Positions 6,754-7,338 of a stretch of 12,639 nucleotides of DNA are shown here, one piece after another. The notes under the pieces are model-generated. The model did no database searches, was not told where the DNA came from, and worked only from the letters and a program-made list of their open reading frames with translations. How positions within the stretch are numbered: the stretch's first letter is position 1; each line of letters starts with the position of its first letter. Where the stretch lies: the IMG/VR virus record IMGVR_UViG_2740892258_000015, positions 1 to 12,639 of that record; one strand, given 5' to 3'. The position numbers were made by a program, and so were the translations under genes. Origin of the DNA: a virus. Lineage: Duplodnaviria; Heunggongvirae; Uroviricota; Caudoviricetes.

Positions 6754-7338
6754 ATGAAAAGTATCCAGGACGTCCGCAGGCAAAATCTCAACGACTTGAT
6801 CGACCGTGAATTCAATGGTGTTCAGACGCGGATGGCAGAAAAACTTGGAACTCAGGCAAATCTGGTAAACCGCTGGGCTCTTGGCAAGAAGGTTATCGGC
6901 GACCAGGTTGCGCGAAAAATTGAAGCTGCCGCCAATAAACCCCGTAACTGGCTTGATATCGATCGCTCGCTTTCTCAGGAAGGTTTTCAGCCTGTCGGCC
7001 CAAGCGACATTGGCCAGCTGGCGGCTCACAACCTGGAACGCTGGATGAGCGAAAGCCGCGACCTTTCAACACAGGGAAAACTTCACCGCGCATCCGGCGT
7101 CGCCCAGGTGACAATCAGCCGCCTGTTAAACAATGAGGTCAGCGTTTCCATTTCCACCCTGGAGAATGTTGCATCCGCATTCGGGCGTCACGGCTATGAA
7201 TTACTGATTCACCCGCACGACCCTGCGACCATCAACTATGACCGCTCGCGCTACGCATTGTTACCCGAAACCGAGAAAGCAAAGATCGAAAGTTACATTG
7301 AATTTGTCATCAACCAGAACGAAAAAAACAAACAATAA
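6754..7338 (+). CDS. Prophage repressor with two tandem XRE-type HTH domains and no S24 peptidase domain
   Basis: First HTH at TRMAEKLGTQANLVNRWALGKK, second at RASGVAQVTISRLLNNEVSVSISTLENVA. No LexA/CI-type autocleavage domain visible. Divergent from the Cro-like gene and followed by a strong terminator. Confidence 0.7.
   Translation: MKSIQDVRRQNLNDLIDREFNGVQTRMAEKLGTQANLVNRWALGKKVIGDQVARKIEAAANKPRNWLDIDRSLSQEGFQPVGPSDIGQLAAHNLERWMSESRDLSTQGKLHRASGVAQVTISRLLNNEVSVSISTLENVASAFGRHGYELLIHPHDPATINYDRSRYALLPETEKAKIESYIEFVINQNEKNKQ

What the first reader, a model, noticed from the sequence alone, without database searches (positions are those of the whole stretch)
6754..7338. Repressor has two HTH domains and no autocleavage domain
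The immunity repressor carries two XRE-type HTH motifs and nothing resembling the LexA/CI S24 peptidase domain with its Ala-Gly cleavage site and Ser/Lys dyad. RecA-stimulated self-cleavage is therefore unlikely. Induction would need an antirepressor or another signal, yet no antirepressor gene is evident in the window.
Basis: inference. Interest (0 to 1): 0.45.

Follow-up and report, generated by a model that had tools for sequence, protein, structure and literature searches.

The report
Known antirepressor-controlled phage repressor, antirepressor deleted
The gene is the already characterised repressor of phiV10/epsilon15-type phages, which is switched off by a small SOS-controlled antirepressor rather than by self-cleavage. 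That antirepressor gene is missing here because this prophage has lost 28 kb, so the finding is correct but ordinary.

Summary
ORF 6754-7338(+) encodes a 194-aa all-helical protein with an N-terminal Cro/C1-type HTH, a second HTH_3-like domain and a short C-terminal tail. It has no S24 peptidase domain and no Ala-Gly site.

It is not new. The protein is 100% identical to the repressor of E. coli phages phiV10 and vB_EcoP_ZX5. The phiV10 GenBank note already reads "two helix-turn-helix motifs". It is 42% identical over its full length to Salmonella phage SPC32H Rep, solved alone and bound to its antirepressor Ant (PDB 5D4Z, 5D50).

In the solved homologue only the N-terminal domain is the DNA-binding domain. 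The second HTH-like domain is a dimerisation module. The tail is the tetramerisation and Ant-docking module.

Induction in this family runs through a LexA-repressed ant gene. Intact relatives such as APEC O18 carry ant (87% identical to SPC32H Ant) with an 18/20 LexA box, next to the tailspike gene.

The window holds no ant because its source (GCA_001245225.1) is an 11.5-kb prophage remnant with a 28,076-bp deletion at 3492|3493. That deletion removed ant, the tailspike, the virion genes and the terminase. Rep here is an orphan and is predicted to be insensitive to SOS.

Interest is low.

The parts
6754..7338 (+). rep: 194-aa immunity repressor, orthologue of SPC32H Rep and identical to phiV10 gp40 / ZX5 ORF21
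6754..6969 (+). Rep residues 1-72: N-terminal Cro/C1-type HTH DNA-binding domain (53% identical to SPC32H Rep; NLVNRW recognition-helix motif conserved)
   Evidence: domain role by homology
7009..7209 (+). Rep residues 86-152: second HTH_3-like domain. It corresponds to the middle dimerisation domain (MDD) of SPC32H Rep
7210..7335 (+). Rep residues 153-194: C-terminal tail. It corresponds to the tetramerisation and Ant-binding module (CAD) of SPC32H Rep
6636..6698 (.). OR-like region between rep and the cro-like gene: three 15-bp palindromes of type TTACC-N5-GGTAA (6636-6650, 6667-6681, 6684-6698). Their positions are conserved in phiV10 and SPC32H
6369..6599 (-). cro-like gene transcribed divergently from rep (phrog_35)
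7359..7378 (+). rho-independent terminator after rep
   Evidence: annotated in phiV10
7396..7472 (+). PL-like promoter (TTGACA at 7430, 17-nt spacer, AATTAT ending at 7458) bracketed by two operators (7396-7410 and 7458-7472) whose centres are 62 bp apart
4291..4367 (-). Third operator pair (4291-4305, 4353-4367; centres 62 bp apart) bracketing a minus-strand promoter upstream of the DUF1064 gene
6299..6313 (.). Single operator-like site with one mismatch, downstream of the cro-like gene
3492..3493 (.). Junction of a 28,076-bp deletion relative to the intact APEC O18 prophage. The deletion removed ant, the BRO-N/Ant-like gene, most of the tailspike, the virion genes and the terminase. It creates the fusion ORF 3426-3878(-)

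Best explanation
ORF 6754-7338 is the immunity repressor (Rep) of a Uetakevirus (epsilon15/phiV10-type) prophage inserted between yfgI and guaA.

Shown here: it is the orthologue of SPC32H Rep. It has an N-terminal HTH domain, a second HTH-like domain and a C-terminal tail, and it has no S24 peptidase domain.

Inferred by homology to the solved protein:
- The N-terminal domain binds DNA.
- The second HTH-like domain dimerises.
- The tail builds the tetramer and is the docking site for the antirepressor Ant.

Inferred from sequence: Rep binds 15-bp TTACC-N5-GGTAA palindromes. Three lie between rep and the cro-like gene. Pairs spaced 62 bp apart bracket the early promoters, which fits one tetramer bridging two sites.

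In intact relatives induction goes through SOS. LexA cleavage derepresses the 85-aa ant gene beside the tailspike gene. Ant then binds Rep, splits the tetramer and releases it from DNA, with no cleavage of Rep.

In the genome sampled here a 28-kb deletion has removed ant together with all virion genes. This copy of Rep is therefore an orphan. It should still repress the remnant's early genes and give immunity against phiV10-type phages. It can no longer be inactivated by its own prophage after DNA damage, only in trans by an Ant from another phage.
For: - Identity and homology: 100% identical to the phiV10, ZX5, PAS61 and phiv142-3 repressors, and 42% identical to the epsilon15 and SPC32H 'rep' proteins over 98% of the length.
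- Solved structures: PDB 5D50_A at E=4e-42 over residues 1-190, and 5D4Z at E=4e-20 over 89-190. Foldseek of the AF2 model returns 5D50 and 5D4Z as the top hits.
- Architecture. The DBD-MDD-CAD roles come from PMC9986798. Tetramer binding and Ant-driven disassembly come from PMC9638917. LexA control of ant is reviewed in PMC7380047.
- Experiment on the identical protein: overexpressing ZX5 ORF21 abolished free phage and cut holin and endolysin transcripts by more than 99.9% (PMC9782041).
- Ant in the intact relative: L005 7134-7391 is 87% identical to SPC32H Ant, matches PDB 5D50_E at E=4e-47, and has an 18/20 LexA box 20 nt upstream.
- Operators: 7 sites in the window against 0.21 expected, with 0 of 200 shuffles reaching 7. 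The three-site OR layout is conserved with SPC32H. The 62-bp pairs are conserved in SPC32H and phiV10.
- Deletion: window 1-3492 equals L005 426-3917, and window 3493-12639 equals L005 31994-41140.
- Source: the whole window is 100% identical to a 146-kb NCBI contig that encodes the junction-spanning fusion protein.
- No Ant in the window or in the 20-kb source locus.
- A comparable ant-less remnant exists in strain AST205.
Against: - No experiment exists on this exact Rep/Ant pair. The ZX5 study tested the BRO-N protein as 'anti-repressor', not the small Ant.
- The part of Rep that contacts Ant is only 38% identical to SPC32H Rep. Binding is therefore inferred, not shown.
- Assigning TTACC-N5-GGTAA as the Rep operator rests on position, statistics and conservation. 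I could not read the primary SPC32H papers.
- Whether the source genome carries another ant-type gene elsewhere was not testable.
- The deletion rests on a single draft assembly.
Confidence: 0.87

Rival explanations
1. The BRO-N domain protein of these phages, not the small Ant (or as well as it), is the physiological antirepressor of this Rep.
For: Overexpressing the ZX5 BRO-N protein (ORF4) lowered lysogeny and rep transcription (PMC9782041). In the APEC O18 prophage the BRO-N protein (L005 8777-9472) carries a C-terminal domain homologous to Ant (tblastn 40% identity; phrog_450 at E=4e-36 over residues 148-229).
Against: No LexA box precedes it; the only near-consensus box in the prophage is in front of the small ant gene. 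The small Ant is 87% identical to the protein crystallised with Rep. The BRO-N effect in ZX5 was modest. This rival is compatible with the main explanation, and the BRO-N gene is also inside the deleted segment.
Confidence: 0.3
2. Both HTH-like domains bind DNA, giving a dual-specificity repressor. This is what 'two HTH domains' would suggest at face value.
For: The second domain gives the strongest Pfam HTH_3 match, at residues 106-147.
Against: In the solved homologue this region is described as a dimerisation domain, and the DNA-binding domain is N-terminal (PMC9986798). Only one palindrome type is enriched around the promoters. The conserved recognition-helix motif NLVNRW lies in the N-terminal domain.
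Confidence: 0.07
3. Rep is inactivated by cryptic self-cleavage or another proteolytic route without any antirepressor.
For: None found here. Proteolysis by host proteases cannot be excluded from sequence alone.
Against: There is no S24 hit at E<=1, no Ala-Gly dipeptide, an all-helical model, and no S24 domain in any of 86 homologues. A conserved LexA-controlled Ant is present in intact relatives.
Confidence: 0.03
4. The missing 28 kb, and therefore the missing ant, is an assembly artefact and the source strain carries an intact prophage.
For: The junction is known from a single draft contig. None of 5,426 complete E. coli genomes has it. There is no microhomology at the junction.
Against: The junction lies in the interior of a 146-kb contig, at about 67-68 kb by the record coordinates, with unique sequence on both sides. 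No repeat exists that could collapse an assembly. Independent ant-less remnants occur at the same locus, for example in AST205.
Confidence: 0.07

Closest known systems
Rep of Salmonella phage SPC32H (Rep/Ant antirepression system; PDB 5D4Z, 5D50; Kim & Ryu 2013, Kim et al. 2016)
   Same: Full-length homologue (E=4e-42, 42% identity). Same length and three-module architecture. Same position, divergent from a cro-like gene. Same operator half-sites (TTACC/GGTAA) and the same three-site OR and 62-bp paired-site layouts. The cognate Ant in intact relatives is 87% identical and sits at the same locus with a LexA box.
   Different: The host is E. coli rather than Salmonella. The C-terminal part is only 38% identical. 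In this genome the ant gene has been deleted, so the switch is incomplete.
Repressor gp40 of E. coli phage phiV10 and ORF21 of vB_EcoP_ZX5
   Same: 100% identical protein. It is annotated with two HTH motifs. Overexpression showed that it blocks the lytic cycle (PMC9782041).
   Different: Those are complete, inducible phages. Here the protein sits in an 11.5-kb remnant.
Gifsy-1/-3 and Fels-2 repressors of Salmonella and coliphage 186 CI/Tum (LexA-controlled antirepressors)
   Same: Same logic: an uncleavable repressor, an SOS-controlled antirepressor, and possible action in trans between prophages (PMC7380047).
   Different: I found no sequence relationship between those proteins and this Rep or Ant. 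The oligomer-disassembly mechanism is specific to the SPC32H type.
Lambda CI / LexA / P22 C2 (S24 self-cleaving repressors)
   Same: N-terminal Cro/C1-type HTH domain, divergent rep/cro arrangement, and multiple operators.
   Different: No S24 peptidase domain, no Ala-Gly site and no Ser/Lys dyad.

Membership tests
SPC32H-type Rep (Uetakevirus Rep/Ant switch) | Full-length sequence and fold homology to SPC32H Rep (5D50/5D4Z) | tested here: met
   phmmer E=4e-42 over residues 1-190. Foldseek top hits are 5D50 and 5D4Z.
SPC32H-type Rep (Uetakevirus Rep/Ant switch) | Architecture of N-terminal HTH DNA-binding domain, middle HTH-like dimerisation domain and C-terminal tetramerisation/Ant-binding tail, with no peptidase domain | tested here: met
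   Pfam and PHROGs, AF2 model, residue-by-residue alignment to the solved chain, and domain roles taken from PMC9986798.
SPC32H-type Rep (Uetakevirus Rep/Ant switch) | Immunity-region context: divergent from a cro-like gene in an epsilon15-like genome, with shared operator layout | tested here: met
   Synteny with phiV10 and SPC32H. OR alignment. Operator scan.
SPC32H-type Rep (Uetakevirus Rep/Ant switch) | Cognate small Ant gene under a LexA box in the same prophage | tested here: not met
   Absent from the window and from the 20-kb source locus because of the 28-kb deletion. It is present, with an 18/20 LexA box, in intact prophages carrying the identical rep. ant is found in 529 complete E. 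coli genomes, against 562 for rep. The protein is still a family member; the system in this genome is incomplete.
SPC32H-type Rep (Uetakevirus Rep/Ant switch) | Rep is not cleaved on SOS induction, and Ant binds Rep and releases it from DNA | not testable with these tools
   This needs biochemistry. It is known only for SPC32H.
LexA/CI-type self-cleaving repressors (Peptidase S24) | C-terminal S24 domain with Ser/Lys dyad and Ala-Gly (or Cys-Gly) cleavage site | tested here: not met
   No S24 hit at E<=1. The model is all-helical. The translation contains no AG or CG dipeptide. None of 86 homologues carries S24.

The most novel reading that the evidence does not exclude
The ant-less remnant may be more than decay. 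Rep would be retained as a standing immunity factor against phiV10-type phages. The deletion has also placed the holin-endolysin-spanin cassette downstream of a Rep-controlled promoter (operators at 4291-4367). An Ant delivered in trans by a co-resident or incoming related phage during SOS could then trigger lysis from the remnant, which would act as an abortive-infection or altruistic-lysis module.
Probability: 0.08. Interest if true: 0.5.

Novelty: already known. Interest (0 to 1): 0.12.

Why it matters
It matters little for biology. The repressor, its lack of a cleavage domain and its LexA-controlled antirepressor are published for this phage genus and supported by crystal structures.

Two practical points remain:
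- Standard annotation hides the system. Ant is called 'hypothetical protein' in RefSeq and its PHROG (phrog_450) is labelled 'unknown function'. The E. coli literature on the identical repressor (ZX5) does not connect it to SPC32H Rep/Ant.
- About 10% of complete E. coli genomes carry this rep (562 of 5,426). Slightly fewer carry ant (529), so orphan repressors in decaying prophages recur. They may affect immunity to phiV10-type phages, which are used for O157 detection and typing.

Tried and rejected
- A LexA box inside the window. There is no exact CTGT-N8-ACAG. One-mismatch sites occur at chance level (6 against 4.0 expected), and the best 20-mer match is 13/20. A CTG-N10-CAG at 6609-6624 next to the PR-like promoter lacks the conserved T4/A13 positions and is deleted in SPC32H, so I rejected it as chance.
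- An Ant homologue or any BRO-N/ANT/KilA-N protein in the window. None was found.
- The small proteins downstream of rep (7492-7644 and 7632-7946) as antirepressors. They have no known function (phrog_898, phrog_856) and lie behind the Rep-controlled PL-like promoter. They would therefore be silent in a lysogen and cannot start induction.
- Internal duplication as the origin of the two HTH-like domains. BLASTP finds no similarity between them.
- Reading the primary SPC32H papers and the epsilon15 genome paper. They are not held, so I relied on secondary descriptions.
- Finding the window as one piece in complete E. coli genomes. None has it. The exact-protein look-up of the junction ORF found the draft source.
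- Read-through from the promoter near 4300 into the lysis genes. It is uncertain because a GC-rich hairpin at 3369-3386 lies in between.

Full report
**1. The observation**

ORF 6754-7338 (+) is real: ATG start, 194 aa, stop included.

- Pfam-A gives HTH_3 at E=1.2e-9 (above the gathering score) with two matched stretches, the best at residues 106-147. It also gives HTH_26 at 104-144 and a sub-threshold YdaS/Cro-like HTH at 21-61. No Peptidase_S24 appears at E<=1.
- PHROGs repressor families match the N-terminal 75 residues on their own, and phrog_13326 matches residues 98-191.
- An AlphaFold2 model built on 34 homologues (mean pLDDT 74; N-terminal domain 85-92) is entirely helical. It has helices at 4-59, a disordered linker at 74-81, helices at 85-151, a poorly defined stretch at 155-167 and a helix at 172-193.
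- The translation has no Ala-Gly dipeptide.
- All 86 homologues found among 5.8 billion proteins are about 194 aa and carry only HTH domains.

So the protein has two HTH-like domains and no self-cleavage domain, as reported. Two refinements apply. The two domains are not detectably similar to each other. There is also a third, C-terminal module.

**2. What it is**

The protein is 100% identical to the repressor of phiV10, vB_EcoP_ZX5, phiv142-3, PAS61 and the O157 typing phages 9 and 10. It is 42% identical over 98% of its length to the repressors of epsilon15 and SPC32H, where the gene is annotated rep.

Against solved structures, the best match is 5D50 chain A ("Repressor", E=4e-42, residues 1-190 aligned to 2-197), then 5D4Z (E=4e-20, residues 89-190). 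Foldseek with the model returns the same two entries first, described as the Rep-Ant complex and Rep from a temperate Salmonella phage. Generic Cro/C1 HTH proteins follow.

The region with rep occurs in 562 of 5,426 complete E. coli genomes.

**3. Published mechanism for the family**

I could not open the two primary papers. Held papers describe them as follows.

- In several Salmonella prophages SOS induction works through LexA self-cleavage and synthesis of an antirepressor that inhibits the repressor by protein-protein contact, citing Kim & Ryu 2013 (PMC7380047).
- SPC32H Rep binds DNA as a tetramer. The dimer binds DNA only weakly. [quoted passage not shown]
- Rep consists of an N-terminal DNA-binding domain, a middle dimerisation domain (MDD) and a C-terminal domain (CAD). 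The CAD builds the tetramer and contacts Ant (PMC9986798).

Mapped onto our protein through the alignment:
- Residues 1-72 are the DNA-binding domain (53% identical to SPC32H Rep).
- Residues 86-152 are the MDD.
- Residues 153-194 are the CAD.
- The C-terminal part, residues 89-194, is 38% identical to SPC32H Rep.

For the identical E. coli protein, overexpression abolished free phage and reduced holin and endolysin transcripts by more than 99.9% (PMC9782041). That paper does not cite the SPC32H work. It took the BRO-N protein as the anti-repressor.

**4. Where the antirepressor is**

In SPC32H, ant (86 aa) lies between the virion genes and the tailspike gene and is transcribed divergently from it. 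phiV10 has gp24 at the same place. The intact APEC O18 prophage has an 85-aa 'hypothetical protein' there, at L005 7134-7391.

The APEC O18 protein is 87% identical to SPC32H Ant (75 of 86 aligned columns). It matches 5D50 chain E, "Anti-repressor protein", at E=4e-47.

All three phages have a LexA box about 20 nt upstream of the start codon. In APEC O18 it is CTGTATAAATATACAG, which matches 18 of 20 positions of the LexA consensus. The best match anywhere in the window is 13/20.

The ant region occurs in 529 complete E. coli genomes.

**5. Why the window has none**

The window is an exact join of two segments of the APEC O18-type prophage. Window 1-3492 equals L005 426-3917 (100%). Window 3493-12639 equals L005 31994-41140 (two mismatches). 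The 28,076 bp between them are absent.

The absent segment carries most of the endosialidase tailspike, ant, a YafO toxin-antitoxin pair, a BRO-N gene, all virion genes, the terminase and several small genes. There is no microhomology at the junction.

The junction creates a 150-aa fusion ORF (3426-3878, minus strand). That exact protein is encoded on one contig in the public collection, the 146-kb contig CVOH01000128.1 of GCA_001245225.1. The whole window is 100% identical to that contig.

The window therefore samples a real 11.5-kb prophage remnant between yfgI and guaA. It retains int, the early-left genes, rep, the cro-like gene, the replication genes and the lysis cassette. Neither the window nor the 20-kb locus around it encodes Ant.

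An independent remnant with rep but without ant exists in strain AST205.

The flanks are identical to intact prophages and the junction is known from one contig only. The deletion is probably recent decay.

**6. Operators (inference from sequence)**

The palindrome TTACC-N5-GGTAA occurs 7 times in the window with at most one mismatch. The expectation is 0.21, and none of 200 shuffles reached 7.

- Three sites lie between rep and the cro-like gene. Two of them (6636-6650 and 6684-6698) are among the seven. The middle one, 6667-6681, has two mismatches and was found from the repeat analysis and the alignment. Their positions are conserved in SPC32H.
- Two sites, with centres 62 bp apart, bracket a strong promoter downstream of the rep terminator (TTGACA, 17-nt spacer, AATTAT).
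- A second 62-bp pair brackets a minus-strand promoter in front of the DUF1064 gene.
- The seventh site, 6299-6313 (one mismatch), lies downstream of the cro-like gene.

The same half-sites and the same 62-bp pairs occur in SPC32H and phiV10, along with further sites in front of ant, the terminase, the portal and int. This fits a tetramer bridging two operators. The invariant NLVNRW motif of the N-terminal domain fits it too. Binding itself is not shown here.

**7. Verdict**

Both are already established for this phage genus. The absent antirepressor is explained by a deletion.

The only new element is that Rep in this genome is an orphan. It is predicted to be insensitive to SOS and to respond only to an Ant supplied in trans.

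Novelty: already known. Interest: 0.12.

Noticed in passing
window 3492|3493 (fusion ORF 3426-3878, minus strand): A 28,076-bp internal deletion of the prophage relative to APEC O18, with no microhomology at the junction. It fuses an EaE-like gene to the 3' end of the endosialidase tailspike gene. The window is 100% identical to draft contig CVOH01000128.1 (GCA_001245225.1). No complete E. coli genome has this junction.
   Followed up: yes
window 4291-4367, 6299-6313, 6636-6698, 7396-7472; also L002, L003, L005: TTACC-N5-GGTAA palindromes are strongly enriched (7 against 0.21 expected). In intact relatives they occur in front of most transcription units (terminase, portal, ant/tailspike, lysis genes, int). 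Pairs with centres exactly 62 bp apart bracket promoters, and this is conserved from SPC32H to phiV10. It suggests genome-wide control by a bridging tetramer.
   Followed up: partly
L005 8777-9472 (APEC O18 prophage, outside the window): The BRO-N domain protein carries a C-terminal domain homologous to the small Ant (phrog_450 at E=4e-36; 40% identity). Intact prophages therefore encode two Ant-domain proteins. This may explain why the ZX5 study saw an anti-repressor effect with its BRO-N protein.
   Followed up: partly
L005 7134-7391; PHROG phrog_450: The SPC32H-type Ant is annotated 'hypothetical protein' in RefSeq. Its PHROG family is labelled 'unknown function', and it has no Pfam or NCBIfam model, despite a crystal structure (5D50).
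   Followed up: yes
window 3088-4367, minus strand: After the deletion the holin-like, holin, endolysin and Rz genes (1290-3087) lie downstream of the Rep-controlled promoter near 4300, in the same orientation. A GC-rich hairpin at 3369-3386 lies in between and may or may not stop read-through.
   Followed up: partly
window 10533-11194: The MT-A70 family DNA methyltransferase gene is split by a frameshift (ORFs 10533-11003 and 10874-11194). It is also annotated as a frameshifted pseudogene in IHE3034 and APEC O18.
   Followed up: no
window 7943-8149: A small MarR-like winged-helix gene (68 aa) sits in a segment (7951-8145) that has no counterpart in phiV10. It is an insertion between the gp38 homologue and the RecE-like nuclease gene.
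   Followed up: no
window 6609-6624: CTGATATTTATTTCAG (CTG-N10-CAG with an AT-rich centre) lies just downstream of the PR-like -10 element. It lacks the conserved T4/A13 positions of LexA boxes and is absent from SPC32H. It is probably chance.
   Followed up: partly
L005 7416-8355 (outside the window): The intact APEC O18 prophage carries a YafO-family toxin and a partner gene as a moron between ant and the BRO-N gene.
   Followed up: no
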